Origin: Bacteroidota bacterium
GTDB taxonomy: Bacteria > Bacteroidota > Bacteroidia > AKYH767-A > OLB10
Direction: 5' to 3'
Assembly: GCA_046052065.1 (NCBI GenBank)
Contig: JBJOND010000003.1
Span: 663-64,662, forward strand
Length of the DNA: 64,000 nt
The number at the start of each line of letters is the position of its first letter. Positions within the stretch are counted from its first letter, which is position 1. Of the stretch, positions 1 to 51,703 are shown piece after piece. The notes below the pieces were generated by a model, which searched no databases, had not been told where the DNA came from, and worked only from the letters and a program-made list of their open reading frames with translations. A program made the position numbers and the translations under genes.

Positions 1-119
1 GGAACAGGGAAGTTAAGCAAAACGCTCGCGTCAAGGCGTGGGCGTTGCTTTACTTTGTTCCGTGGTTCTTGGTCGAACCTTCAAGGCAAGTAATAGCAAC
101 TAACCCACGCTATTTTTTT
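1..119 (+). ncRNA. Unassigned GC-rich structured element: two long imperfect hairpins followed by a T7 run. It is probably the 3' end of an RNA or 3'UTR that begins left of the window.
   Basis: nt 1-61 fold back on themselves. ggaaca 1-6 pairs with tgttcc 56-61, agttaagcaa..cgc 11-25 pairs with gcgttgctt.act 42-54, and the apex is cgcg-tcaagg-cgtg. cgtgg 61-65 pairs with ccacg 105-109 and is followed by T7 at 113-119. The motif tcaagg occurs in both hairpins. GC is visibly higher than in the AT-rich flank. Confidence 0.3.
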
Positions 120-162
120 GACTGATTCTATCCATTTAGTTAGTTTATTTATTGGTGAAGAC

Positions 163-237
163 CAGAACTCACTTTAAAAAACGGCCATGCTCAAATTGGA
201 AATTTGAGGGCGCATACCGAAAAGCCTAATGAGTAGG
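163..237 (+). promoter_or_regulatory. Conserved 75-nt leader element, copy A, with a perfect palindrome ctcaaatt-gga-aatttgag at 190-208
   Basis: About 92% identical to copies at 983-1057 and 1807-1881 by my own alignment. The palindrome is invariant in all three. The element ends 17 nt before the ATG at 254. Confidence 0.6.
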
Positions 238-253
238 GAAAGGGAATTTAAAA

Positions 254-727
254 ATGGAAAACGTACTTTCTCAAATTAATGTAGATCAATTGTCGATTAA
301 ATTAACAGATGAAAAATTGTATATTAATACAGCTACATCAAACGAAACCTTTGCTTTACGATCAATTAATGGTATTGGTGTGATTGATTTGGTTGATGAG
401 TATAATGCAGCTCTAACGGAGTTTAAGAAAAAAAGAAATGGGCCTTTAGTATTATTGGTTGTGGGAATTATATTTACAATTGAAGGATATTGGCTTAATG
501 TTTTTGGTTTGACTGTGGCAGGGCTTTTAATGACTTTAATAGGTTTTTTTGCATATCAAGGTTTCAATTCGAAAAAGCCTACATTAATGTCTGCCGTACG
601 TGTTATGATGAGCGGAGGAAATCGCGATTTTAAATTCGATAAAGCGAATGTTACAAGTGGATACATTGCAGATTTTGTAGCAAAAGTAGAGTCGACATTG
701 TCAGCATACCATAAAAAGAATGTATAA
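254..727 (+). CDS. Hypothetical membrane protein: conserved soluble N- and C-terminal segments flanking a hydrophobic two-helix hairpin (paralog 1)
   Basis: 157-aa ORF. Compared with 1075-1548, the first 51 codons show 1 non-synonymous and 6 synonymous changes, and the last roughly 50 codons show 6 non-synonymous and 16 synonymous changes. The central part (PLVLLVVGIIFTIEGYWL / VFGLTVAGLLMTLIGFFAY) is hydrophobic and diverged. I do not recognise a family. Confidence 0.75.
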   Translation: MENVLSQINVDQLSIKLTDEKLYINTATSNETFALRSINGIGVIDLVDEYNAALTEFKKKRNGPLVLLVVGIIFTIEGYWLNVFGLTVAGLLMTLIGFFAYQGFNSKKPTLMSAVRVMMSGGNRDFKFDKANVTSGYIADFVAKVESTLSAYHKKNV

Positions 728-930
728 TTGGTTTTTGGGATACTTTTTGGAAGGTATTGCAAGTTAGAACATCGGTTCAAATACAGGAGAATTTAGAAAG
801 TACTAATAGTAGAAACCGACGACAACGTGAATTGAATTCTAATTTAGAAGAAATTCATTATGAATTAGAAAAGAAGCGTGAATCCTGGGACTATCAAAAA
901 AAGGCCTCTCGAAAAAAAAACAATAAGTGA
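727..930 (+). CDS. Small charged coiled-coil protein (paralog 1) with ATT in place of the ATG start. It could be a functional non-canonical start or a decaying copy.
   Basis: This open frame of 67 codons is not in the ORF track. It translates to (I/M)GFWDTFWKVLQVRTSVQIQENLEST..KKRESWDYQKKASRKKNNK, roughly 85% identical to the product of 1551-1754. ATT 727-729 overlaps the upstream TAA stop. Confidence 0.4.
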   Translation: MGFWDTFWKVLQVRTSVQIQENLESTNSRNRRQRELNSNLEEIHYELEKKRESWDYQKKASRKKNNK

Positions 931-982
931 TATTCTGCAAAATAGCTTGCCACTTAAATAAGAAATATTAAACTATGGAGTT

Positions 983-1057
983 CAGAACCCATATTAAAAA
1001 ACGGCCATTCTCAAATTGGAAATTTGAGGGCGCATAACGAAAAGCCTCATGAGTAGG
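983..1057 (+). promoter_or_regulatory. Conserved 75-nt leader element, copy B (palindrome 1010-1028)
   Basis: Same element as 163-237. It ends 17 nt before the ATG at 1075. Confidence 0.6.
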
Positions 1058-1074
1058 AAAATGAAATTTAAAAA

Positions 1075-1548
1075 ATGGAAAACATACTTTCTCAAATCAA
1101 TGTAGATCAATTGTCAATTAAATTAACAGATGAAAAATTGTATATTAATACTGCTACATCAAACGAAACCTTTGCTTTACGATCGATAAATGGAATTGGT
1201 GTGATTGATTTGGTTGATGAGTATAATACATTATTATCTGATTGGAAGAAAAAAAATAAAAAAACATTATCTCCAATTGCAGTGGGCATTCTGTTTTTAT
1301 TTACAGGTTATAGTGATAACAATATCAAGTTAGGTTTATTAGGTTTACTAGCCATTATTGGCGGGGCTATATGGTATAATAAAATGCTTTCAGAAAAGCC
1401 ATCTATGATGTCAGCAGTTCGAATTATGATGAGTGGTGGAAACCGTGATTTTAAATTTGATAAGGCGAATGTTTCAAGTGGATCTATTGCAGATTTTGTT
1501 GCTAAAGTGGAGTCGACATTATCAGCGTACCATAAAAAGAATGGGTAA
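1075..1548 (+). CDS. Hypothetical membrane protein with a hydrophobic hairpin (paralog 2)
   Basis: 157-aa ORF, paralog of 254-727. The hairpin is LSPIAVGILFLFTGY / LGLLGLLAIIGGAIWY. The excess of synonymous differences argues for real coding sequence under purifying selection. Confidence 0.75.
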   Translation: MENILSQINVDQLSIKLTDEKLYINTATSNETFALRSINGIGVIDLVDEYNTLLSDWKKKNKKTLSPIAVGILFLFTGYSDNNIKLGLLGLLAIIGGAIWYNKMLSEKPSMMSAVRIMMSGGNRDFKFDKANVSSGSIADFVAKVESTLSAYHKKNG

Positions 1549-1550
1549 TA

Positions 1551-1754
1551 ATGGGATTTTGGGATACGTTTTGGAAGGTATGGCAAGTTAGAACATCGGT
1601 TCGAATTCAGGAGGATTTGGAAAGCACTATTAGTAGAAATAGACTACAGCGAGAGCTGAATTCAAATTTAGAAGAAATTCATGATGAATTAGAAAAGAAG
1701 CGTGAATCTTGGGACGATCAAATAGAGGCCTCTCGAAGAAAAAACAATAAGTAA
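1551..1754 (+). CDS. Small charged coiled-coil protein (paralog 2)
   Basis: 67-aa ORF whose ATG lies 2 nt after the upstream stop (taataATG). It has a W-rich N-terminus (MGFWDTFWKVW) followed by a highly charged helical-looking sequence. The gene is conserved in the first unit. Confidence 0.6.
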   Translation: MGFWDTFWKVWQVRTSVRIQEDLESTISRNRLQRELNSNLEEIHDELEKKRESWDDQIEASRRKNNK

Positions 1755-1806
1755 TATGCTGGAAATTGTTTTGTTATTTAGTTTGTAAATAGTCAACTAT
1801 GGAGTT

Positions 1807-1881
1807 CAGAACCCATATTAAAAAACGGCCATGCTCAAATTGGAAATTTGAGGGCGGATACTGAAAAGCCTTAAGAGTAGG
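1807..1881 (+). promoter_or_regulatory. Conserved 75-nt leader element, copy C (palindrome 1834-1852), upstream of the lipoprotein/SIR2-like pair
   Basis: About 92% identical to copy B. It ends 18 nt before the ATG at 1900. Confidence 0.6.
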
Positions 1882-1899
1882 TTCAATAAAATATAAATA

Positions 1900-2307
1900 A
1901 TGAAAAAACTGTTTTTAAATTTAATGTCATTTTGTATGACTGCTTCTACATTACTTTTTGTAAGTTGTAACGATGGTGGATTTAGCGGTAAAAGTGAAGA
2001 ACCCTCGATCGTAGGAACCTATGAAAATATTGCTTATTCATCAGGAAGTAAAATTGAAATCAAAGCAGATAGCACTTATATAAAATGGGAATGTAAGCCA
2101 GATATGTCTGGCGTTGATTTACAAACTGCTGATCCTAATGCTGAAATTCCAATGAAGTGCACCGAAGTGAAAAGAGGAAAATGGACTTTGGAAGGTACTG
2201 TATTACATATTGATGATTGGCCATATAAATTTGGTGTAAAACCTGACAGACTTTATTATAATGACACCATGTATGGTAAAGGGACTATTGAGTGGACAAA
2301 AAGATAA
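1900..2307 (+). CDS. Small lipoprotein of unknown function
   Basis: Signal peptide with a lipobox (MKKLFLNLMSFCMTASTLLFVSC). The mature part of about 110 aa looks beta-rich. I do not recognise a family. Confidence 0.65.
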   Translation: MKKLFLNLMSFCMTASTLLFVSCNDGGFSGKSEEPSIVGTYENIAYSSGSKIEIKADSTYIKWECKPDMSGVDLQTADPNAEIPMKCTEVKRGKWTLEGTVLHIDDWPYKFGVKPDRLYYNDTMYGKGTIEWTKR

Positions 2308-2350
2308 TTAGAATTGGAATTGATTGATTTTAGAATTTAGCAAAAACGAT

Positions 2351-3304
2351 ATGGATTTTGAAAATTATTTTAATCAAGAATTATTAAAGGGTAAAATTGA
2401 TAAGAAATTTGTTTTAATTATCGGTTCTGGAATCCATAAACAAGCATTCAGAGAGAAAAAGAATATATTGTCGGATTGGGAGACATTGCTAAAAAGTGTA
2501 AGCAAAAATGTTTCCCTATCCAATAATTACATTTTAGATTTTGAATCAATTGTCGTTGCTGAAACAAGAAAGCAAAAGTCGGATTCTGCTAGTAAAATTG
2601 AACTTGTAAAACTGAAATCCTTATCAAGTAATATAATTAATTTTAAAGTCAATAAATATAAATTAAATTATCCTCTTAGGATTTTTAATTCGAATTGCAT
2701 TAGTGATGTAATAAATCTAAATTTTGATATCGTTGTTGAAAAAATTTTATCTAATTATAAAATTAATAGAGGTCGTTATTCAGATCATAATTTGGACGAA
2801 ACTGGAACAAAAAAATCGCCCATTTTAAATTCGATGTATTATGAAATTAATGGTATTAAATTTTGGCATCCTCATGGGTCAGTTTTAAAACCGGATTCTA
2901 TTCTTTTAGGATTAAGAAAATATTCAAAGAGTGCAAAGGAAGTTGAGCAATTAAGAATACGGTATAAAAGCAAAACAGATGGAGGCGAAAAATTTACTGT
3001 TGACGGTTTTAATTGGTTTGACGCACTTGTTCAAAGACCCATTATTATATGTGGTACATCTTTGAGTGATTCGGAATGGGACATTTGGTTAGCCATCGTA
3101 AATCGTTTTAGAAATTATGCAAAACATCCCCAAAAAGAACAGCCAATTTTTATAATGACTGGTGGAAAAAGTCTAAAAAGGAATTGTTTAAATAACTTTA
3201 TTAAAGCTTTTAGACCTGTATCATCCAATGCATGTTCTTATAACGAAGAATGGTTGTTGTTGGAAAAATTATTGGGAGATTGTCAAAATAAAAACTTGAC
3301 ATGA
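2351..3304 (+). CDS. Stand-alone SIR2_2-like (defence-type sirtuin/NADase-like) protein
   Basis: Motifs appear in the SIR2_2 order: FVLIIGSGIH..SDWETLL (GxG plus W..LL), NLNFDIVVEK (N.D), FWHPHGSV..PDSILLGLRKY (HG), and PIIICGTSLSDSEWDIW (G.S..D). It lacks the CobB-type Zn-Cys motifs. The track starts at TTG 2324, but ATG 2351 is more likely. Confidence 0.6.
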   Translation: MDFENYFNQELLKGKIDKKFVLIIGSGIHKQAFREKKNILSDWETLLKSVSKNVSLSNNYILDFESIVVAETRKQKSDSASKIELVKLKSLSSNIINFKVNKYKLNYPLRIFNSNCISDVINLNFDIVVEKILSNYKINRGRYSDHNLDETGTKKSPILNSMYYEINGIKFWHPHGSVLKPDSILLGLRKYSKSAKEVEQLRIRYKSKTDGGEKFTVDGFNWFDALVQRPIIICGTSLSDSEWDIWLAIVNRFRNYAKHPQKEQPIFIMTGGKSLKRNCLNNFIKAFRPVSSNACSYNEEWLLLEKLLGDCQNKNLT

Positions 3305-3384: not shown

Positions 3385-4149
3385 TTATCTTTGTGAATTT
3401 ATAACATACTCCGTCATTACCTTATAAACCTCCAACGATTTCTTATCCTTTTTCAATAATTGAAGGTGCTCTTGAATTATCTTTTGATCATTACGTCGTG
3501 CTGGACCTGTTTGTACGTCTACTGGTGCGTGGCTATGAACTTTTAACGTGGTTTGGTCGATGAGTGGTAAAAGATATTCCCACTTCAAATTTTTCTTTTG
3601 TAAATGATCATGCGCAATCGTGAAGCATGCATTCACAAAATTATTCACGAACACAGCAGCTAAATGTAATTCCTTACGCTGATCACTACTCAGTACATAA
3701 GACTTTTTTGAAAGTCGTTTTGCTAATCGTAAAAGCTTCTTTTCTGTAGCCGGATTATTACCTTCAACAAATACAGGTATTTCATTCCAGTTAACTTTTA
3801 CCTTCGGACTAAATGTTTGCAATGGATATAAAACACCATTGTTTCCTTTGTGCTTATTTAAATCGCTTATAGGCGCTGTTCCGGAAGTATGCAACAAAAT
3901 GCCACTGTAGTTTTTAAAGTTTGGCACAAGCTCTTTAATGCTGCTATCTGAAACGCAAAGTATAACCGCATCTGCATTTAAATTAAGCAGAGAAATGTCT
4001 TCAATAAAATCAAGCTTGTGTTTTTTGGCTAATGACTTTCCCGTTGAATGGTTTCTAGAAAATAATTGTTGTACCTTAATTCCTTTTTCAAGTAAACGAG
4101 GAATAATATGTGAAGCTAAGTTGCCCGATCCAACAATGCTTATTTTCAT
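3385..4149 (-). CDS. Rossmann-like plus DUF2520 domain protein
   Basis: MKISIVGSGNLA dinucleotide-binding start. The C-terminal LHLAAVFVNNF and QTGPARRND motifs are typical of DUF2520. The gene overlaps the ccmF stop by 4 nt. Confidence 0.6.
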   Translation of the reverse strand: MKISIVGSGNLASHIIPRLLEKGIKVQQLFSRNHSTGKSLAKKHKLDFIEDISLLNLNADAVILCVSDSSIKELVPNFKNYSGILLHTSGTAPISDLNKHKGNNGVLYPLQTFSPKVKVNWNEIPVFVEGNNPATEKKLLRLAKRLSKKSYVLSSDQRKELHLAAVFVNNFVNACFTIAHDHLQKKNLKWEYLLPLIDQTTLKVHSHAPVDVQTGPARRNDQKIIQEHLQLLKKDKKSLEVYKVMTEYVINSQR

Positions 4150-43705: not shown

Positions 43706-46700
43706 TTACCGTAACAGTGTTACGGACCCGTTCTTTTCGATCTCCTGACCGCTCGTTCCGAAAATACGAACGTTGTACACATAAGTGCCTTCAGGAGCGA
43801 GCGTTCCATCGAACGTCCCGTCCCAACCCTCTTCAGGGTTATTGGTCTCGAATACTTTCTGTCCCCATCGATTAAACACGATGAAGAAATAATTTTTAGC
43901 ATCTACATAAATGAAGCTTGGCTTGAATATCCCATTTTTTCCACCAGGAGTAAACCCTGAAGGAACATATACTTTAGGTTCTTGTATTAAGCAAATCTCA
44001 TTCGATGAGCTCGTATCTGTGAATCCATAAATATTTCCGCCACCTTCATAAGCTTCTACACGGTAACAGAAGCGTCCTGTTGTTTGGAATATAGAAGAGA
44101 CATCATCAATATAAGCTTGCTGACCAAATGGTAAGATTGCAGCAGGAACTAGTTGCCATGTATCGTCAATTTTTCTGAATAAGGAATAATTGCTTACACC
44201 ACCTAACCATTCTTCGTAATCGTTATACTTGAGACTGTTTGTTAGATTTTTTTCAGCTAAACCGCTAAGTAATATAGTTCTTCCTAGATTACTAATTAAT
44301 ACTTCGTTTCCGCATGAGTCCACAGTAACTATTCTATAGTAATAACTATACTGATTAGTTCTTGCTGTGAAGTCAGAGAATGTTAAATCAGGTAAACCAG
44401 AATAAGTTTGAACTGCTACGGTTGAGAATGGACCTGTTTTTTCAAAAGCACGCTGTAGTTTATACTTGCTGACATCAGGTTGTTTTAATGTATCCACATA
44501 AGCAGTTACAATTACTCTGCGTAAATCGATTACCGTTGCTTTACGCAAATAACCAAATGTAGGTAACACCAATAAATTAGCAGTATCACTTGCTTGCGTT
44601 GATATAGCTGTTTTAGTATTGTCATTTCCAACAACCTGTATATAGTAATTATAAATAGAACCGTTGGTCAATGTATTATGGCTGTAAGTTATATTCGTTG
44701 CAGGTACACTTGCCAACAATGTTATTGGACCTCCATTTTCACTCACAAACACATTATATCCAGCAACACCTCCAGGCATATTAATAAACGGATTCCATTG
44801 TAGGTCGATAGCATACTTACATACATCTAACTTAGCTTTCAAGAACATCGTATTTTGAGAAAGTCCAATACTACTGCGATTACCACAACTGTCGTAAGCA
44901 GCAATGCTGTAAAGCTGCGATCCATTCTGAACAGCAGGATCAACGAATGAGAAGCTTGTACTATTGGCACCTGTTACAGCCCCAATTGAATCCCAACTAG
45001 CTCCATTGAAGTTATAGATGATATAACCTTCTACATCACCTGATGTACTAGGAATCCAACTAATATTAACATTTGTTCCAGTCGGCGTACTTAAACTAAC
45101 GGTATCCATTACCGAAACATTTGGTTTGGTAATATCTTTAAATAAATCACCATCAATTGATGAGTTAGAAATACATCCGGATTGATCTCCTGTACTCACA
45201 TAATAGTTAATGATTGCAGAGCATACATTGATAGTATCTGACCAATCATAGTCAGGTGCAGTAGTAGTTCCAATTTTAGACCATGTACCTGTAGGATATT
45301 CTTTGTAAACATCATAGGTTAAAGTGGCGGTTGCCAATTCAGGATCATGTAAAGGATTCCAGCGAATAAATGCAACACCGTTGTTGTTAATCACATTCAC
45401 TCGAATCGTTCTAAGTGTATCGGTTACAGGTGATGTTTCACCACCACATGCTGTTTGGGTGGTGATATAGTAGTAAATGCTGTTGTTTTGAGCATTCGCA
45501 CCAATATGGGTGTAGCTAAGAGTATTGTAATTGTTTACTGTTTGAATTTTTGCAAATGGTCCGTTAGGATTTGCAGAGGAGTAAATCTGATAATTTCCAA
45601 ATCGCATTCCTGTATCAACAGGAGCAATCCATGTTAAAGTAACATCTCCATTTGGTAAAACAGACGCACATCTTAATTCAGGTGATGTTGGTATTGTATG
45701 ATCGACAAATGTTTCACCATCATAGTTCGACATAGAAATACAAAATGTATCTTCTAAACTTACTCTATAATTTACGGAATCGATACATAATGTTAATGGC
45801 TCAGTAAATGTTGTTGCTGTTACATTGCCAGCAACAGTCCAATTACCACTTCCCGCAGGTTGTTCTCTTTCTACTGTATAAGTATTGCTTGTATTTGGCA
45901 ATAATGGAGTAGATGGAGCATTCCAATTTAAGTTAGCTGTTGTAGTATTTGCGCCTGTTACTTTTAGATAAATTGAACTGATTGTATTTCCTAAGGTGCC
46001 ATTGTCAACCTGTCCAGAACATCCTGACTTTGTTACTAAGTAATAACTCACCGATCCATTGTAGCCATTCGCTGTATTATCGGTGTAAGTTACAGCAGAA
46101 TTATTTTGAACAGAGTCAATCAAAGTGAATCCAGTACCTGTATTTCTGTAGATATTAAATTGATTGAAATTAACCCAAGATCCTGATAAAACCCCTTTCC
46201 ATGTCAACTGTATTTGGCCGCCCGGAGAAATCACACTTGCGCAATGTAATTCTGGGTTGCCAATAATATTTCCTATGTAAGTAAATAAGTTCGTGTCAAT
46301 ATTTGATGTCGATATACAGCCACTATTATCAGCTATTTTAATCTGATAATGTATAGTTGTGTCGCAATTGTTGATTGGCTGACTATAAACTAACCTATTG
46401 GTATCACCATAAAGCTGTAAGTTGCCAGTGGTATTGTAAGATGACCACACATCATATTGACCTGTAGTTGTTGTACCAGGAATTGGATTCGCTAATGCCG
46501 TCCAATTTAAATTAGCAGTTCCTAATGCAGGAGTTGTAGATAGATAAATTGAACTTAATGTTTGTGAATTTGATGCGCTGTTAATCTGTCCACTACAGCC
46601 AGATTGCGTAAGCATGTAGTAGCTATACGATTGGTTATTTCCATTTGCAGTAGCATCTAAATAGGTTGTAGCAGCAAAGTTGGATACAGAATCTAATTTC

Positions 46701-49700
46701 GTAAATCCAGCCCCGTTATCTCTCCATATTTCAAACTCATTGAAGTTGATACTTGAACCAGTAGGAGGGATAAAACTAAGTTGTATTTGTCCATTAGATT
46801 GAACGCTAACACAACGTAAGTCAGGATTGTTAATCACATTACCTAAGTAAGTGTATAAGTTAGCATCAATATTAGATGTTGATATACAACCACTATTGTC
46901 CGCAAGTTTAATTTGATGACTAAGAGTTGTATCGCAATTGTTAATTGGCTGACTATAGACTAATCTATTGGTATCTCCATAAAACTGCAAGTTTCCTGTA
47001 GCATTATAAGATGACCAAATATCATACTGTCCTGTCGTTGAAGTTGCAGGAATCGGATTTGCTAATGCTGTCCAACTTAGGTTCGCTGTCCCTAATGCCG
47101 GTGTGGCTGTTAAGTAAATTGAACTTAATGTTTGTGAATTTGATGCGCTGTTAATCTGTCCACTACAACCAGATTGCGTAAGCATGTAATAGCTATACGA
47201 TTGGTTGTTTCCATTTGCAGTAGCATCTAGATATGTAGTAGCAGCAAAGTTGGATACAGAATCTAATTTCGTAAATCCAGCACCGTTATCTCTCCAAATT
47301 TCAAACTCATTGAAGTTGATGCTTGAACCAGTAGGAGGGATAAAACTTAATTGTATTTGCCCATTAGGTTGAACGCTAACACATCGTAAGTCAGGATTGT
47401 TAATTACATTACCTAAGTAAGTATATAGGTTAGCATCTATATTAGATGTTGAAATACAACCGCTGTTATCTGCTAATTTAATTTGATGACTAAGTGTTGT
47501 GTCGCAATTTACTATTGGCTGACTATAAACTAATCTATTGGTATCTCCATAAAACTGTAAGTTTCCTGTAGCATTATAAGATGACCAAACATCATATTGC
47601 CCTGTCGTTGAAGTTGCAGGAATCGGATTCGCTAATGCTGTCCAGCTTAGGTTCGCTGTTCCTAATGCAGGCGTAGCTGTTAAGTAAATTGAACTTAATG
47701 TTTGCGAATTTGATGTACTGTTAATCTGTCCACTACAACCAGATTGCGTAAGCATGTAATAGCTATACGATTGGTTATTTCCATTTGCAGAAGCATCTAA
47801 ATAGGTAGTAGCTGCAAAGTTGGATACAGAATCTAATTTCGTAAATCCAGCACCGTTATCTCTCCATATTTCAAATTCATTAAAATTGGTATTAGAACCA
47901 GCAGGAGGAATAAAGCTTAATTGTATTTGTCCATTTGATTGAACGCTAACGCATCGTAAGTCAGGGTTTGCTATGATATTTCCTATATAAGTATATAAGT
48001 TAGTATCTATATTGGATGTAGATATGCAACCACTGTTGTCGGCTAATTTAATTTGATGACGGAGTGTTGTATCGCAATTGTTGATTGGCTGACTATAAAC
48101 TAATCTATTGGTATCTCCATAAAACTGTAAGTTTCCTGTAGCATTGTAAGATGACCATACATCATATTGTCCTGTAGTTGACGATGCAGGAATTGGATTC
48201 GCTAATGCTGTCCAACTTAAGTTCGATGTTCCTAATGCCGGTGTGGCTGTTAAGTAAATTGAGCTTAATGTTTGAGAATTTGATGTGCTGTTGACCTGTC
48301 CCGTACAACCAGATTGTGATAATAAATAATAGCTGTAAGATTGACTATTACCATTTGCCGTAATATCCAAATAAGTGGTAGAAGCAAAGTTCGATACAGA
48401 ATCTAATTTCGTAAATCCAGTTCCGTTATCTCTCCATATTTCAAACTCATTAAAATTAGCACTTGATCCAGCTGGAGGAATAAAGCTTAATTGTATTTGT
48501 CCATTTGCTTGAACACTAACACAACGCAAGTCAGGGTTTACAACTACATTTCCTAAATAGGTGAAAACACCATTTGCAGCCGACGATACAGATGTACATG
48601 GTGCATTGTCAGCAATTTCAATGGTATACTCGTAAGGTACGTTACATGTTGTGATATTATCGATGTAGTTAAGGTTACTGGTTGTTCCAATTTGAGCATA
48701 AGCCCCAACTCCAGTTGTTCTTCTTTTAACGATATAAGTTCCGCTTGATGATGCTAACAATGGATTGCTCATCGCATTCCAGTTCAATGTTGCACTTCCA
48801 AGAGTTGCGTTGCTAACGGATAAATAAATGGAGGCTAATGTATCTCCTGTACTTCCGTTATCTGCTAAACCAGAACATCCCGAAAGGGTTTTCAAATAGT
48901 AATATTTAGAACCTACATTAGCATTAGCACCAACATGTAACCATGAAGTAGTTGCATAACTGTTTACAGTTCCAACTAGCGTATATGGTCCAGCTAAAGC
49001 AGCTGCAGAATAGATTTGATATTTCGAGAAGAAATTATCTGGGTCAGATGGTGCTACCCATGTCAGCTGTACATCACCGTTAAGTTGTACTGCTAAACAT
49101 CGAAGTGAAGGATTATCAAGAATATCACCTACCGATGTAAATTGGTTAGCAGAATCTGAGGAGGTAGATATGCATCCTGATGCATCTGCAATTTCCACTT
49201 TGTATTGAATGGTGGTATCACATAGGGTTATTGTATCTCTGAAAGTAAGCGCCGCGGTTGTACCTCGTAATACCCAAGGCAAGCTAGGCACCACTCTTCT
49301 GTATACTTTATATTGTCCACTACTTGTAGCAGGTAACGGAACTCGAAGTGCGTTCCACGATAAATCAGCAAAGCCGACAGTTGCATTGTTCAAGATTAAC
49401 TTAATTGATGATAAACTATCTGATGTAGTAGGTGAGTCGAACGTAGTAGTAACATCGCATCCAGCTTTAGTTCTTATGTAATAAAAATGTGGCTGTGCAT
49501 TTCCTTGCGCACCTACGTGGGTAAAGGTGTTTGCACCGTAATTGGTAACGGTTCCTATTTGAGTATAAGGACCTGCTTTGGCAAGTGAATGATAAATTTT
49601 ATACTCCGCAAATGCTCCTGCAGTATCGAGTGTTCCAATCCAGCTTAATTGGATATCTTCATTTGGTAAAACACTAACGCATCGCAATGATGGCGGAGTG

Positions 49701-51703
49701 ATGGTTGGAGCAGCAGCTGTTAGTCGAGCACCATTAATGTTAGATCTGGAGTCACAACCTCTTAGATCATTACGAAGTCTGATGTAATAGTTAATGGAAT
49801 CGTTACAAACAGATACGGGGTCTAAATAGGTTGTATTTGAAGTTGAATCAATCAAATTGAAAACTCCTGAACCGGCAGGCTGCTCTTTGTAAACGTAGTA
49901 TCTCGGACGTGATCCAACTGGATTTGTTGGGGTTCGCAATGGATTCCATGATAAACTCGCATTGGTTCCAACCTGTGAGACCTGAAGATACATAGTTGAT
50001 AATGTATCTGTTTGTGGTCTTGCTAATAAATCACAACCTGATTTGGTTTCTAAAAAATACCTTACTGAACCAGTATTTGCATTAACGTTGTTATCTGTCC
50101 AAGTTAAAGTGGTGGCAACGTCAATACTATCAACTAATGCAAACGGACCAGCTCCAATTGCGCGATAGATAAAATGTTTTCTGAAATATTTTAGAGTGTC
50201 TTGAACTCCTGTATCAGGTGGTATATCCCATGAGAGCGTAACTTTTCCACTGGGTTGGACATCGGCGCAATAGAGGGTCGATGCTTTCATTTCTGGTGGT
50301 GCGACAACAACTATGGAAAGCGTAAAGAAGTTTACAGCTGGTGAAGGGCAGAAGCTGTCAAACGCTTTTACAACGAAATTGTAGGTGTTCGAAAGCCGGA
50401 CGCAGCCAACGGTTTTTGCAAGGTGATTACAATCCGTTATCCAATTAAAATTGATGGAATTATTAAAGAGTCCAAAACCTGTAGGTACCGTCGTTCCTAC
50501 ACCCGCAACGTTAGTCAAATAGGCGCATGGTGGAAACGGACATCTACCAGTATTAGCAGCTTCAGAAGTATCGAGCTGAATTCCGGTTACATCAAACGAA
50601 ACACTTTGAGGCAAGGAAGCGGCAGTACCGCCAACGAATTCAAAATCGGTAGCTTGTATTGTCGTGAAGACTGTATCACCAGCATAGACTGTATCAACAT
50701 ATTGGTTAACTCCTCCCTGTTGGAATCCGTAAGTGAAAATAATGGTTGTATCGACATCAGGAGGGGTATTCAATCCTGTTGTACCACCACTATAGGCAAC
50801 GGTTCTGTTACCTATGAGTGTGATTTGAATTTCACGAAAAACTTCTGCGATTTTAATTCCACATCTAAAGGCTGATACTTTAGTTACAGTTACAAAAGAT
50901 CCTGTATTAAATGATAAGAAAGATACGATTCCAGAGTTCGGGTCCAATATCGCAGCTTGGTTATTTGCATTTTGAGGAGGAGTAGGGCTAGGCAAGGGAT
51001 TAGTAAAAGAATATCCAGCTGCATAGGGATAGTTGGTCCCGGGGTAAGTTGTCCCATCTAAAGGGCGACCCCATTCATAGTATAAAGAATCTCCTTCTTC
51101 GTCAACCGCATTCGCAGAATAGGTGGTTATATTACCAATCATCGTTGCAAGTTGAGGACGCTCAGCAAAACGTGGCGATGAATCATAGCAAGGATTTGTA
51201 TTCGTAGCATTGTAAGGAAACATGGTAGCTCTTAAAATAAAGTTCCCACCACCACTAGCTCCTAAATTCGTAATACCCGTATTACGACAACAATCCCAGT
51301 AAAAAAAATTCCAGCCTGTTGCAGGAGGTACACCGGTGATTGTTATCCAACCAGATTCGTAAATACATTCTAAAACGGCGTTAAGCTGGCCTCCTGGTGT
51401 AGCACAAGTTGGACAAGGTATAGTTTGACCTGGAGTGCCTACAGGAGATAAATCCAAGGTCGAAACTTGAGGACAGTTAATTCCGCCACCCAAACCAGGT
51501 GCGTTAGATTGTAAGTTAACAGTTGTCGGTGCAGGAATTCCGTTACAGTCTCTGTAGAGTTTTACAGTAAATTTAAATCTCCCAGCGTTTGGTCCTGATT
51601 TTTTACAGACCCATGTAACCTCACCCCCCATTAAGTGAGATCCAAATGAGTCAACTACACCAATGCATAGCAGGAGTAGGATAATACTCAGTAATTTCTT
51701 CAT
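43706..51703 (-). CDS. Giant modular cell-surface protein (2665 aa) with a gliding-motility-associated / T9SS type B C-terminal domain
   Basis: Signal peptide, followed by about nine modules of roughly 190 aa that each open with P.LRC.SV..NG.(I/V)QL(S/T)(W/F). The C-terminus VPSGFTPGGKNGIFKP..FNRWGQKVFE..GWDGT..GTYVY fits the type B CTD pattern. Confidence 0.85.
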   Translation of the reverse strand: MKKLLSIILLLLCIGVVDSFGSHLMGGEVTWVCKKSGPNAGRFKFTVKLYRDCNGIPAPTTVNLQSNAPGLGGGINCPQVSTLDLSPVGTPGQTIPCPTCATPGGQLNAVLECIYESGWITITGVPPATGWNFFYWDCCRNTGITNLGASGGGNFILRATMFPYNATNTNPCYDSSPRFAERPQLATMIGNITTYSANAVDEEGDSLYYEWGRPLDGTTYPGTNYPYAAGYSFTNPLPSPTPPQNANNQAAILDPNSGIVSFLSFNTGSFVTVTKVSAFRCGIKIAEVFREIQITLIGNRTVAYSGGTTGLNTPPDVDTTIIFTYGFQQGGVNQYVDTVYAGDTVFTTIQATDFEFVGGTAASLPQSVSFDVTGIQLDTSEAANTGRCPFPPCAYLTNVAGVGTTVPTGFGLFNNSINFNWITDCNHLAKTVGCVRLSNTYNFVVKAFDSFCPSPAVNFFTLSIVVVAPPEMKASTLYCADVQPSGKVTLSWDIPPDTGVQDTLKYFRKHFIYRAIGAGPFALVDSIDVATTLTWTDNNVNANTGSVRYFLETKSGCDLLARPQTDTLSTMYLQVSQVGTNASLSWNPLRTPTNPVGSRPRYYVYKEQPAGSGVFNLIDSTSNTTYLDPVSVCNDSINYYIRLRNDLRGCDSRSNINGARLTAAAPTITPPSLRCVSVLPNEDIQLSWIGTLDTAGAFAEYKIYHSLAKAGPYTQIGTVTNYGANTFTHVGAQGNAQPHFYYIRTKAGCDVTTTFDSPTTSDSLSSIKLILNNATVGFADLSWNALRVPLPATSSGQYKVYRRVVPSLPWVLRGTTAALTFRDTITLCDTTIQYKVEIADASGCISTSSDSANQFTSVGDILDNPSLRCLAVQLNGDVQLTWVAPSDPDNFFSKYQIYSAAALAGPYTLVGTVNSYATTSWLHVGANANVGSKYYYLKTLSGCSGLADNGSTGDTLASIYLSVSNATLGSATLNWNAMSNPLLASSSGTYIVKRRTTGVGAYAQIGTTSNLNYIDNITTCNVPYEYTIEIADNAPCTSVSSAANGVFTYLGNVVVNPDLRCVSVQANGQIQLSFIPPAGSSANFNEFEIWRDNGTGFTKLDSVSNFASTTYLDITANGNSQSYSYYLLSQSGCTGQVNSTSNSQTLSSIYLTATPALGTSNLSWTALANPIPASSTTGQYDVWSSYNATGNLQFYGDTNRLVYSQPINNCDTTLRHQIKLADNSGCISTSNIDTNLYTYIGNIIANPDLRCVSVQSNGQIQLSFIPPAGSNTNFNEFEIWRDNGAGFTKLDSVSNFAATTYLDASANGNNQSYSYYMLTQSGCSGQINSTSNSQTLSSIYLTATPALGTANLSWTALANPIPATSTTGQYDVWSSYNATGNLQFYGDTNRLVYSQPIVNCDTTLSHQIKLADNSGCISTSNIDANLYTYLGNVINNPDLRCVSVQPNGQIQLSFIPPTGSSINFNEFEIWRDNGAGFTKLDSVSNFAATTYLDATANGNNQSYSYYMLTQSGCSGQINSASNSQTLSSIYLTATPALGTANLSWTALANPIPATSTTGQYDIWSSYNATGNLQFYGDTNRLVYSQPINNCDTTLSHQIKLADNSGCISTSNIDANLYTYLGNVINNPDLRCVSVQSNGQIQLSFIPPTGSSINFNEFEIWRDNGAGFTKLDSVSNFAATTYLDATANGNNQSYSYYMLTQSGCSGQINSASNSQTLSSIYLSTTPALGTANLNWTALANPIPGTTTTGQYDVWSSYNTTGNLQLYGDTNRLVYSQPINNCDTTIHYQIKIADNSGCISTSNIDTNLFTYIGNIIGNPELHCASVISPGGQIQLTWKGVLSGSWVNFNQFNIYRNTGTGFTLIDSVQNNSAVTYTDNTANGYNGSVSYYLVTKSGCSGQVDNGTLGNTISSIYLKVTGANTTTANLNWNAPSTPLLPNTSNTYTVEREQPAGSGNWTVAGNVTATTFTEPLTLCIDSVNYRVSLEDTFCISMSNYDGETFVDHTIPTSPELRCASVLPNGDVTLTWIAPVDTGMRFGNYQIYSSANPNGPFAKIQTVNNYNTLSYTHIGANAQNNSIYYYITTQTACGGETSPVTDTLRTIRVNVINNNGVAFIRWNPLHDPELATATLTYDVYKEYPTGTWSKIGTTTAPDYDWSDTINVCSAIINYYVSTGDQSGCISNSSIDGDLFKDITKPNVSVMDTVSLSTPTGTNVNISWIPSTSGDVEGYIIYNFNGASWDSIGAVTGANSTSFSFVDPAVQNGSQLYSIAAYDSCGNRSSIGLSQNTMFLKAKLDVCKYAIDLQWNPFINMPGGVAGYNVFVSENGGPITLLASVPATNITYSHNTLTNGSIYNYYIQVVGNDNTKTAISTQASDTANLLVLPTFGYLRKATVIDLRRVIVTAYVDTLKQPDVSKYKLQRAFEKTGPFSTVAVQTYSGLPDLTFSDFTARTNQYSYYYRIVTVDSCGNEVLISNLGRTILLSGLAEKNLTNSLKYNDYEEWLGGVSNYSLFRKIDDTWQLVPAAILPFGQQAYIDDVSSIFQTTGRFCYRVEAYEGGGNIYGFTDTSSSNEICLIQEPKVYVPSGFTPGGKNGIFKPSFIYVDAKNYFFIVFNRWGQKVFETNNPEEGWDGTFDGTLAPEGTYVYNVRIFGTSGQEIEKNGSVTLLR
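46259..48538 (-). repeat. Four in-frame tandem repeats of exactly 570 bp (190 codons) inside the adhesin gene
   Basis: Module starts fall at 48538, 47968, 47398 and 46828, and the next module starts at 46258. Sampled stretches of the three downstream copies differ at only a few percent of positions, and the fourth copy is more diverged. Confidence 0.9.

What the first reader, a model, noticed from the sequence alone, without database searches (positions are those of the whole stretch)
163..3304. Candidate undescribed conflict/defence locus: a stand-alone SIR2_2-like protein plus a lipoprotein, linked by a shared leader to two membrane-hairpin/coiled-coil gene pairs
The only accessory-looking DNA in the window is AT-rich and contains no recognisable housekeeping genes. 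It is bounded by a terminator at 113-119 and by the convergent ccm operon at 3385.

It encodes three transcription units: 157-aa + 67-aa genes, a second 157-aa + 67-aa pair, and a lipoprotein + SIR2-like pair. All three are preceded by the same 75-nt leader.

The last gene carries, in order, the GxG, N.D, HG and G.S..D motifs of the SIR2_2 family. Members of that family in Thoeris ThsA, DSR and SIR2-HerA systems act as NAD+-depleting effectors.

At about 318 aa the protein has no room for a sensor domain, so sensing or regulation would have to come from partner genes. None of the partners resembles a known SIR2 partner (TIR, SLOG, HerA, pAgo).

The combination of a membrane-hairpin protein, a small coiled-coil protein, a lipoprotein and a SIR2-like protein does not match any named system I know.
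Basis: partly seen in the sequence, partly recalled or inferred. Interest (0 to 1): 0.8.

Follow-up and report, generated by a model that had tools for sequence, protein, structure and literature searches.

The report
SIR2-like gene beside DUF805-RNA-led envelope genes
The region is a small accessory islet in a freshwater Bacteroidota chromosome in which a known but unexplained RNA leader (the DUF805 motif) precedes small membrane and lipoprotein genes. The last gene encodes a compact NAD-cleaving-type SIR2 enzyme whose relatives almost always sit inside operons for exported cell-surface proteins, an association I found described nowhere.

Summary
The sequence-level observation holds. The window carries two 157-aa + 67-aa gene pairs and a lipoprotein + SIR2_2 pair, each preceded by the same leader of about 100 nt.

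The interpretation as one new defence system is only partly supported.
- **The leader.** It is a lineage-specific variant, with a 25-nt extra hairpin, of the Rfam DUF805/DUF805b RNA motif. Canonical copies precede 160-aa homologs and small lipoprotein genes in unrelated genomes that lack SIR2.
- **The 157+67 pair.** It is a widespread, self-contained cassette, and 49 of 50 loci examined have no SIR2.
- **The SIR2-like protein.** It passes Pfam SIR2_2 and keeps the invariant N, D and H residues. Its model matches only defence-type NADases (KomC, ThsA, DSR2, FAM118B). It hits no PADLOC model and does not lie in defence islands.
- **Its neighbours.** In other genomes, 38 of 44 adjacent same-strand genes encode signal-peptide proteins, including type IX secretion system (T9SS) cargo, collagen-like proteins and lectin-domain proteins.
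- **A second lineage.** One distant lineage (L054/L085) repeats SIR2 + 157 + 67 + leader + small lipoprotein in a permuted order. The linkage is therefore recurrent but facultative.

Verdict: a new variant of a known kind. The function is not established.

The parts
146..257 (+). Leader copy 1: DUF805-type RNA motif variant carrying a 25-nt inserted hairpin, immediately 5' of the first 157-aa gene
   Evidence: The session's covariance model R2 scores 120.5 bits. Rfam DUF805b RF02914 matches 207-239 at 33.3 bits, E 8.7e-7, just under the gathering score of 35.6. The P1 helix is kept through a compensatory change.
254..727 (+). A1: 157-aa membrane protein, modelled as a PH-like beta-sandwich split by a transmembrane (TM) helical hairpin
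   Evidence: ORF. The family has at least 228 clusters. The AF2 model, built with copy A2 (1075-1545) as first sequence, has pLDDT 83.6, with five strands, two long helices, two strands and a C-terminal helix. Top Foldseek hits are PH domains but are weak, E 0.04.
727..930 (+). B1: 67-codon small helical protein gene without an ATG (ATT 727 overlapping the A1 stop; TTG 757)
   Evidence: Sequence. It is 84% identical at the protein level to B2, and the frame stays open in L047. It matches the B-family HMM. Public gene callers did not call it.
966..1077 (+). Leader copy 2
   Evidence: R2 scores 127.5 bits. Rfam DUF805 RF03081 matches 970-1063 at 40.1 bits, E 5.3e-5, below the gathering score of 51.1 because of a 37-nt insertion where the model has 10.
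1075..1548 (+). A2: second 157-aa membrane PH-like protein
   Evidence: ORF. Compared with A1, nucleotide identity is 92% in the N-terminal part, 53% in the TM hairpin and 82% in the C-terminal part.
1551..1754 (+). B2: 67-aa small helical partner with the conserved N-terminus MGFWDTFxKVWQVRTS
   Evidence: ORF. A B-like gene follows the A gene in 37 of 46 testable loci by tblastn, and in further loci by ORF and motif.
1790..1902 (+). Leader copy 3, immediately 5' of the lipoprotein gene
   Evidence: R2 scores 121.6 bits. Rfam DUF805b matches 1851-1883 at 31.9 bits, E 2.5e-6.
1900..2307 (+). 135-aa lineage-specific small lipoprotein (signal peptide followed by Cys)
   Evidence: ORF. Only 6 homologous clusters exist, all close relatives. 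There are no Pfam, PADLOC or PHROG hits.
2351..3304 (+). 317-aa compact stand-alone SIR2_2-family protein, a predicted NAD+-processing enzyme
   Evidence: Pfam PF13289 scores 31.9 bits against a gathering score of 24.5. The GxG, N124/D126 and H173/H175/G176 positions are invariant. The AF2 model has pLDDT 88.5 and pTM 0.89. Foldseek top hits are KomC, ThsA, DSR2, FAM118B, Avs5 and SIR2-HerA. A PDB sequence-profile search finds FAM118B at E 3.7e-5.

Best explanation
The region is a mosaic accessory islet at a variable chromosomal spot. It is not one dedicated multi-gene machine.

**Module 1 (present twice).** This is a self-contained, widespread Bacteroidota cassette. A DUF805-type 5' leader RNA precedes a membrane-anchored split PH-like protein (157 aa) and a translationally coupled 67-aa helical partner.

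**Module 2.** A locally duplicated copy of the same leader drives a small lipoprotein gene and, 43 nt downstream with no terminator-like site between them, a compact SIR2_2 protein.

**Shown.** The leader's family identity is established. The two gene families occur independently of each other in most genomes. The SIR2 fold and catalytic residues are intact. The SIR2-like family is embedded in operons for exported proteins.

**Inferred.** The SIR2-like protein cleaves NAD+, as its nearest structural relatives KomC, ThsA and DSR2 do. It is probably switched on by oligomerisation, since it has no sensor domain. Its expression in this lineage is tied to whatever signal the DUF805 leader responds to, which also controls small envelope proteins. 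The most likely role is an NAD+-depleting stress or abortive-infection effector wired to the state of the cell envelope. The co-encoded envelope proteins would act as context or trigger rather than as fixed, specific partners.
For: **Leader**
- The three window copies hit DUF805/DUF805b with E 1e-5 to 1e-7.
- Canonical copies score 67-84 bits (gathering score 51.1) directly upstream of 160-aa homologs in L035, L038 and L049-L053. They also sit upstream of small lipoprotein genes in L038 and L002.
- In the 9-sequence alignment, 3 of the 4 P1 pairs covary and 97% of cells form pairs.

**157+67 cassette**
- At least 228 clusters exist.
- A B-like gene follows in 37 of 46 loci, and a SIR2-like gene is present in only 1 of 50.
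- Chromosomal contexts vary.

**SIR2-like protein**
- Pfam match is above the gathering score, and N, D and H are invariant.
- The model is confident, and all 16 Foldseek hits with E<=0.001 are immune-type SIR2 NADases.
- The wider clade consists almost entirely of stand-alone proteins of 280-360 aa.

**Envelope link**
- 38 of 44 adjacent same-strand genes encode signal-peptide proteins, against 95 of 263 in the background (Fisher p=3e-10).
- Neighbour domains are Collagen, DUF7151, fn3, Lcl_C, Fib_succ_major, Laminin_G_3, Por_Secre_tail and CHU_C.
- Stop and start codons overlap in many of these loci.

**Local history**
- L004 has leader-A-B-leader-lipoprotein-SIR2, and both its leaders share the lineage-specific 25-nt insertion. 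This indicates that the lipoprotein-SIR2 leader was copied locally.
Against: - No NADase activity or phenotype has been tested.
- No PADLOC model is hit, and flanks of homologous loci are not defence islands.
- Partners with cleavable signal peptides end up outside the cytoplasm, so a direct protein-protein trigger for a cytoplasmic SIR2 is hard to picture.
- The window copies of the leader fall below Rfam gathering scores and show no unusual thermodynamic stability, with z between -0.4 and -1.2.
- The second lineage with all components together (L054/L085) argues that the modules are less independent than stated here.
Confidence: 0.45

Rival explanations
1. All six genes form one defence system, in which the membrane-hairpin and coiled-coil pairs and the lipoprotein sense infection at the envelope and activate the SIR2 NADase.
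For: - The shared leader implies co-regulation.
- The arrangement is conserved at the same chromosomal site in strains whose SIR2-like proteins are 79-100% identical.
- A distant lineage (SIR2 34% identical, A 53% identical) again has SIR2-A-B-leader-small lipoprotein, with a 19-nt gap between SIR2 and A and a permuted gene order. By my rough estimate, about 0.05 such adjacencies would be expected by chance among about 30 SIR2 lineages (inference).
- KomC shows that a small SIR2 can rely entirely on partner genes (PMC13454610).
Against: - Apart from the window's own lineage (L004, L041, L047, L048), none of the SIR2-like loci searched carries A or B, even with HMM searches.
- 49 of 50 A-family loci lack a SIR2-like gene.
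- The two lineages' lipoproteins are not detectably homologous, E=14.
- The leader-A-B-leader-lipoprotein arrangement exists without SIR2 in L038.
- There are no PADLOC hits.
Confidence: 0.17
2. The SIR2-like protein is not an immune effector. It is a cytoplasmic NAD-dependent enzyme or regulator serving cell-surface biogenesis, for example ADP-ribosylating or deacylating surface-protein precursors or their regulators before export. Cytoplasmic glycosyltransferases that modify adhesins before export would be the analogy.
For: - The gene is tightly embedded, often with overlapping codons, in operons of T9SS- or Sec-exported proteins across Flavobacteriales, Crocinitomicaceae, Chitinophagales and Sandaracinomonas.
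- Two distant family members sit immediately upstream, on the same strand, of surface-polysaccharide biosynthesis gene clusters.
- There is no defence-island context, and neither family is found on viral contigs.
Against: - Every significant structural match is an NAD+-degrading immune SIR2, and none is a deacylase sirtuin.
- The neighbouring proteins are too heterogeneous to be one substrate class. They include collagen-like, LamG, LPP20/Lcl_C and thioredoxin-like proteins, small lipoproteins and membrane PH-like proteins.
- The distribution is patchy and the G+C is low.
Confidence: 0.22
3. Chance juxtaposition. Unrelated accessory genes accumulated at an insertion hotspot, and the repeated leader merely reflects tandem duplication.
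For: - The site is variable. The A-B unit is single or double, and an AAA_14/DUF4143 gene is present or absent.
- A tandem repeat with a period of about 822 nt explains two of the three leader copies.
- Both families are found mostly apart.
Against: - L004, which has a single A-B unit, still has a separate leader in front of lipoprotein-SIR2.
- The association with envelope genes is family-wide, p=3e-10.
- A second lineage has the same components together.
Confidence: 0.12

Closest known systems
KomC, the SIR2 effector of the Kongming system (PDB 8zsf, 9xvc; PMC13454610; bioRxiv 10.1101/2024.12.20.629578)
   Same: It is a compact stand-alone SIR2 with no sensor domain. It is the best Foldseek match, with E 2e-6 and TM 0.54-0.70. 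The catalytic His-Gly motif is conserved.
   Different: No KomA (deaminase) or KomB (HAM1-like pyrophosphatase) gene lies nearby. Sequence identity is only 13-16%. There is no PADLOC hit (PADLOC-DB 2.0.0 dates from 2023 and may predate Kongming). The neighbours are exported or envelope proteins.
Thoeris ThsA, DSR2, SIR2-HerA and Avs5 SIR2 domains
   Same: They share the SIR2_2 fold and the N/D/H catalytic arrangement, with Foldseek E from 1e-5 to 1e-2.
   Different: The window protein has no SLOG/Macro domain, no large C-terminal sensor and no STAND module. No TIR or HerA partner gene is present.
Human FAM118B, a filament-forming noncanonical sirtuin (PDB 9r3e, 9r0p; PMC12700824)
   Same: It is the best sequence-profile hit in the PDB, at E 3.7e-5. 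The GxG, NFD and HxHG motifs align. It is a single-domain protein of similar size.
   Different: It is a vertebrate protein with no operon context. Identity is low.
DUF805 / DUF805b RNA motifs (Rfam RF03081, RF02914, clan CL00115; described, from memory, by Weinberg et al. 2017, PMC5737381, as candidate cis-regulatory RNAs of Bacteroidota)
   Same: The window leaders share the 5' hairpin GUGG...CCAC, the A-rich linker, CCGAAAAGCC and the unpaired GAGUAGGA just before the start codon. They sit 5' of small membrane-protein genes.
   Different: The window lineage carries a 25-nt extra hairpin, which drops the scores below Rfam's gathering values. The downstream genes here are not DUF805-domain proteins. 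They are a split PH-like membrane protein or small lipoproteins.
Bacterial membrane-anchored PH-like proteins (bPH_2 / YdbS-YdbT type; DUF6232)
   Same: The 157-aa protein is modelled as a seven-stranded sandwich with a C-terminal helix, anchored by two TM helices. Top fold hits are PH domains, including the bacterial protein 3b77. Pfam DUF6232 matches only at E 0.23.
   Different: The TM hairpin is inserted inside the PH-like fold rather than preceding it. All matches are non-significant.

Membership tests
Pfam SIR2_2 (PF13289) | HMM score at or above the gathering threshold | tested here: met
   31.9 bits against 24.5, E 1.7e-7. Most homologs carry the precomputed PF13289 annotation.
Pfam SIR2_2 (PF13289) | SIR2 Rossmann-type fold | tested here: met
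   The AF2 model has pLDDT 88.5 and pTM 0.89. All 16 Foldseek PDB hits with E<=0.001 are SIR2 proteins.
Pfam SIR2_2 (PF13289) | Catalytic Asn/Asp and His-Gly motifs conserved | tested here: met
   N124, D126, H173, H175 and G176 are invariant in 30 sequences. They align to the NFD and HIHG motifs of FAM118B.
Defence-type SIR2 NADase effectors | NAD+ hydrolysis and phage protection | not testable with these tools
   This needs an enzyme assay and phage challenge.
Thoeris (ThsA/ThsB) | C-terminal SLOG or Macro domain on ThsA, and a TIR-domain ThsB gene nearby | tested here: not met
   The protein is a 317-aa single domain. There are no PADLOC hits at E<=1. No Thoeris model is hit among the window's 49 ORFs.
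DSR1/DSR2 | Protein of about 1000 aa with a large C-terminal sensor | tested here: not met
   The protein is 317 aa. Family members are 280-360 aa.
SIR2-HerA | Adjacent HerA ATPase gene | tested here: not met
   No such gene is in the locus.
Kongming (KomABC) | KomA deaminase and KomB HAM1-like genes in the same operon as the SIR2 | tested here: not met
   The operon partners are a lipoprotein and, upstream, membrane and coiled-coil proteins with no such domains. Only the fold of KomC matches.
AbiH (PF14253) | HMM score at or above the gathering threshold | tested here: not met
   25.3 bits against 30.9. No PADLOC AbiH hit.
Rfam DUF805 / DUF805b RNA (CL00115) | Covariance-model score at or above the gathering threshold | tested here: not met
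   The window copies score 40.1 against 51.1, and 33.3 and 31.9 against 35.6. The shortfall is explained by a 25-nt insertion. Copies without the insertion in front of homologous genes score 67-84 bits.
Rfam DUF805 / DUF805b RNA (CL00115) | Conserved P1 and P2 helices and conserved unpaired blocks, located just 5' of an ORF on the same strand | tested here: met
   In alignment A6, 97% of cells form pairs, 5 pairs change on both sides, and 0 of 500 shuffles reach the observed score. All copies end 10-25 nt before a start codon.
Rfam DUF805 / DUF805b RNA (CL00115) | Downstream gene encodes a DUF805 (PF05656) protein | tested here: not met
   No PF05656 hit for any downstream protein at E<=1 for the window's genes, or at E<=0.1 for the L038 and L002 lipoproteins.
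PH-like / bPH membrane proteins (157-aa protein) | PH-like beta-sandwich capped by a C-terminal helix | tested here: inconclusive
   The topology of the AF2 model fits. The best Foldseek E-value is 0.041, to the Avo1 PH domain.

The most novel reading that the evidence does not exclude
A clade of compact SIR2 NADase-like proteins in aquatic Bacteroidota is functionally coupled to the export or integrity of cell-surface proteins. The clade has about 100 representative clusters at E<=1e-30. One possible form is an envelope- or secretion-stress-triggered NAD+-depletion switch. In that model, unexported precursors, or membrane proteins such as the split PH-like 157-aa protein, act as triggers, and the orphan DUF805 RNA leader supplies the transcriptional or translational input in some lineages. 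This would be a new sensor logic for SIR2 effectors and a first functional handle on the DUF805 RNA motif.
Probability: 0.2. Interest if true: 0.8.

Novelty: new variant of a known kind. Interest (0 to 1): 0.5.

Why it matters
SIR2 NADases are central effectors of bacterial immunity, and how each one is triggered is the open question. This family has no sensor domain and none of the known partners, yet it is consistently co-operonic with exported surface proteins. If that link is functional, it points to an undescribed trigger tied to the envelope or to secretion.

Separately, the work assigns new downstream gene classes to the orphan DUF805 RNA motif: a conserved membrane PH-like plus small-helix cassette, and small lipoproteins. 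That narrows hypotheses about what the leader senses.

If the link is not functional, the region is simply an accessory islet with an uncharacterised SIR2_2 gene.

Tried and rejected
- **PADLOC, NCBIfam and PHROGs on the window's proteins.** PADLOC was run on all six, NCBIfam and PHROGs on four. Nothing useful was found. The only hit was a weak holin-like match (E 2.9e-4) confined to the TM hairpin of A1. I regard it as transmembrane-composition similarity, because that segment is the variable part of the family.
- **Leader copies elsewhere.** I searched the 64-kb window and 30+ SIR2 loci with two covariance models and with Rfam. None was found except L002 and L004.
- **Phage-borne origin.** Neither the SIR2-like nor the 157-aa family was found in IMG/VR contigs.
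- **Defence-island test.** Among 150 flank proteins, only a few matched single-gene PDC candidates or generic MotB and HTH models. Hits within the window go to MzaA, RT-Protease_XI, LmuA, HamA and PDC-M35A models, and no complete system is present. Which window genes they fall on was not listed. From the N-termini I suspect sigma-factor and protease genes (inference).
- **Homology between the two lineages' lipoproteins.** Rejected, E=14.
- **Thermodynamic stability of the leader.** It is not distinguishable from shuffled sequences.
- **Weinberg 2017 supplement on DUF805.** The text is not held in the library, so statements about the motif's original description rest on memory and on Rfam names.
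- **Literature linking SIR2 with DUF1566, Fib_succ_major or DUF6175.** None was found.

Full report
**1. What is in the sequence**

- 254-727 and 1075-1548, each 157 aa.
- 1551-1754, 67 aa.
- 1900-2307, a 135-aa lipoprotein-like protein.
- A SIR2-like ORF ending at 3304. Its real start is most likely ATG 2351 (317 aa), as in all homologs and in public gene calls.

The first small ORF has lost its ATG. The frame opens at ATT 727, overlapping the upstream stop, and the first canonical start is TTG 757. The 67-codon frame is intact here and in a strain about 92% identical. It is therefore probably still translated by coupling (inference).

A tandem repeat with a period of about 822 nt accounts for the two 157/67 units. 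A 106-nt segment occurs three times, at 156-261, 976-1081 and 1800-1905, with 77-86% identity. G+C drops to 0.26-0.29 inside the SIR2-like gene.

The window's contig and related strains place the islet between a permease-methyltransferase pair and a DUF2520-CcmF-CcmE-CcmD block. In strains whose SIR2-like protein is about 90% identical, an extra AAA_14/DUF4143 gene sits between the SIR2-like gene and DUF2520. In the relative at 82% identity (L004) there is only one 157/67 unit. The site is therefore a fixed but variable accessory spot.

**2. The shared leader is a known RNA family**

Rfam matches all three copies to DUF805 (RF03081: 970-1063, 40.1 bits, E 5e-5) or DUF805b (RF02914: 207-239 at 33.3 bits and 1851-1883 at 31.9 bits, E about 1e-6). 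All are just under the gathering scores. L004 gives the same result.

The shortfall is due to a 25-nt hairpin (CUCAAAUUGGAAAUUUGAG) inserted into the central loop in this lineage.

In other genomes the element directly upstream of 160-aa homologs is a canonical DUF805 RNA, well above threshold. It scores 83.6 bits in L035, 67.1 in L038 and 77-84 in L049-L053. Further copies precede small lipoprotein genes of 111 aa in L038 and 69 aa in L002.

In a 9-sequence alignment, 3 of the 4 P1 pairs covary, 97% of cells form pairs, and no shuffle reaches the observed covariation. Thermodynamic stability is unremarkable. This fits a motif defined mainly by conserved unpaired blocks.

No additional copies occur elsewhere in the 64-kb window, nor upstream of SIR2 clusters in other loci, apart from L002 and L004. 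The leader is thus a general cis-element for small envelope-protein genes in Bacteroidota. It is not a signature of one system.

**3. The 157+67 pair**

The 157-aa family is large, with at least 228 clusters at 50-60% identity. The soluble N- and C-terminal segments are strongly conserved and the TM hairpin is highly variable. The two window paralogs show the same pattern, with 92% and 82% nucleotide identity in the flanks against 53% in the hairpin.

AF2 (pLDDT 83.6) models five strands, a long helical hairpin, two strands and a C-terminal helix. The best fold matches are PH domains but are not significant.

Across 50 loci, a B-like gene with the conserved N-terminus MGFWDTFVKVWQVRTS follows the A gene in 37 of 46 testable cases by tblastn, usually with overlapping or abutting codons. 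More cases are recognisable by ORF and motif.

Chromosomal contexts differ between genomes, and neither family was found on viral contigs. A SIR2-like gene is present in only 1 of these 50 loci.

**4. The SIR2-like protein**

Pfam SIR2_2 is above threshold, and AbiH is below threshold. No PADLOC, NCBIfam or PHROG model is hit.

Thirty homologs share invariant G25, G27, N124, D126, H173, H175 and G176. The AF2 model is confident, with pLDDT 88.5 and pTM 0.89. Every Foldseek hit with E<=0.001 is an immune-type SIR2: KomC of Kongming, ThsA, DSR2 and FAM118B. Avs5 and SIR2-HerA follow at weaker E-values. The only sequence-profile hit in the PDB is FAM118B.

The wider clade has 1480 representatives at E<=1e-3, 549 at E<=1e-10 and 97 at E<=1e-30. 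Nearly all are stand-alone proteins of 280-360 aa.

The molecular inference is an NAD+-processing enzyme without its own sensor. KomC is the precedent for such a protein being controlled by partners (PMC13454610).

**5. Context of the SIR2-like family**

Thirty-one genome loci, all but one (L033, labelled Deltaproteobacteria) from Bacteroidota and many from lake and river samples, plus three metagenome loci were examined. Homologs of the 157-aa, 67-aa and 135-aa proteins occur only in the closest relative, L004, by tblastn and by HMM. The 135-aa lipoprotein family has six clusters in total.

The SIR2-like gene instead sits inside same-strand clusters, often with overlapping stop and start codons. 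Nearly all the other genes in these clusters encode signal-peptide proteins. Of the immediately adjacent genes, 38 of 44 do so, against 95 of 263 elsewhere in the same loci (Fisher p=3e-10).

Their domains are Collagen, DUF7151, fn3, Lcl_C, Fib_succ_major, Laminin_G_3, SUEL lectin, PKD, exported thioredoxins, and the T9SS sorting domains Por_Secre_tail and CHU_C. DUF6175 and PorP/SprF occur nearby. Two distant family members sit immediately upstream, on the same strand, of surface-polysaccharide biosynthesis gene clusters.

Flanking genes are not defence islands, and the window contains no recognisable defence system. The lipoprotein + SIR2 pair in the window is therefore one instance of a family-wide theme: a cytoplasmic SIR2-like gene co-operonic with envelope or exported proteins. 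My literature search found no description of this.

**6. A second lineage with all components**

A metagenome contig (L054) carries a divergent HTH gene, then a SIR2-like gene (34% identical to the window's), then an A homolog after a 19-nt gap, then B, then a DUF805b leader at 37.3 bits, above the gathering score. The overlapping contig L085 continues with a 125-aa lipoprotein that is not detectably related to the window's.

The closest match to that SIR2 gene among the loci examined (L015, 45% identical) has a similar divergent HTH gene upstream, but is followed by a 728-aa secreted protein instead.

L038 shows leader-A-B-102-aa gene-leader-lipoprotein with no SIR2. L002 has a leader plus small lipoprotein next to a cluster holding two full SIR2-like paralogs and one truncated copy.

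The linkage of SIR2-like genes to DUF805-led envelope genes is therefore recurrent and, by my rough estimate, more frequent than chance. It is nonetheless facultative.

**7. Verdict**

The single-system interpretation is only partly supported.

The best reading is a mosaic islet of DUF805-RNA-led small envelope-protein cassettes with an embedded, probably NAD+-cleaving, SIR2_2 effector. That effector's family is linked to cell-surface gene clusters in an undescribed way.

The function is not shown. It could be abortive infection or stress suicide, a role in surface biogenesis, or mere hitch-hiking.

I rate it a new variant of a known kind, with moderate interest.

Noticed in passing
window 1-122 (full element: L041 5596-5772): A 177-nt element ending in the T-run at 113-119 folds into one long imperfect hairpin, with MFE -69.9 kcal/mol and z = -8.0. 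It is 98-99% identical in L004, L047 and L048, although the adjacent locus is only about 80-92% identical. It has no Rfam match and only one copy per locus. It may be a small RNA or a DNA-level element lying between the methyltransferase gene and the first leader.
   Followed up: partly
L041 1888-3069 (just upstream of the window's start on the same contig): A canonical sirtuin (PF02146, 225 aa) and a Y1_Tnp (IS200/RAYT-type) gene lie about 3 kb upstream of the islet. A Y1_Tnp gene also lies about 4 kb from the A-B cassette in the unrelated locus L044.
   Followed up: no
window 435-567 compared with 1256-1388: The TM-hairpin segment of the two 157-aa paralogs is only 53% identical at the nucleotide level, while the flanks are 82-92% identical. 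The same hypervariability is seen across the whole family. This could reflect relaxed constraint, recombination or diversification.
   Followed up: partly
window 725-760: The first 67-codon ORF has ATT in place of ATG, overlapping the upstream TAA. The change and the open frame are shared by L047 and L048. This suggests termination-reinitiation coupling or a non-canonical start rather than a dead gene.
   Followed up: partly
L047 8416-9768 and L048 8269-9621: In strains whose SIR2-like protein is about 90% identical, an AAA_14/DUF4143 ATPase gene on the opposite strand is inserted between the SIR2-like gene and DUF2520. A similar AAA_14-type N-terminus lies near the SIR2 cluster in L013, and two flank proteins matched PADLOC PDC-S01 models, although which proteins was not listed.
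   Followed up: no
L002 6001-11480: One cluster holds two full-length SIR2-like paralogs and a 45-aa N-terminal fragment of a third. They are interleaved with three LPP20-like/Lcl_C exported proteins. This points to repeated local duplication of SIR2 plus surface-protein units.
   Followed up: no
contigs of P0065 and P0062 (no DNA held): Distant SIR2-like members (24-26% identity) sit immediately upstream, on the same strand, of polysaccharide biosynthesis gene clusters containing a flippase, glycosyltransferases, epimerases and DegT. One of them is preceded by a PhdYeFM/YoeB toxin-antitoxin pair.
   Followed up: no
L013, L015, L022, L031, L054 (upstream of the SIR2-containing clusters): A small helix-turn-helix gene on the opposite strand recurs upstream of, or next to, the surface-protein/SIR2 clusters. 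It is 108 aa in L013, L022 and L031, and 128-143 aa in L054 and L015. It may be a dedicated regulator.
   Followed up: no
window 43706-51703 (- strand): There is a 2665-aa ORF with an N-terminal signal peptide. It looks like a giant surface protein and was not examined.
   Followed up: no
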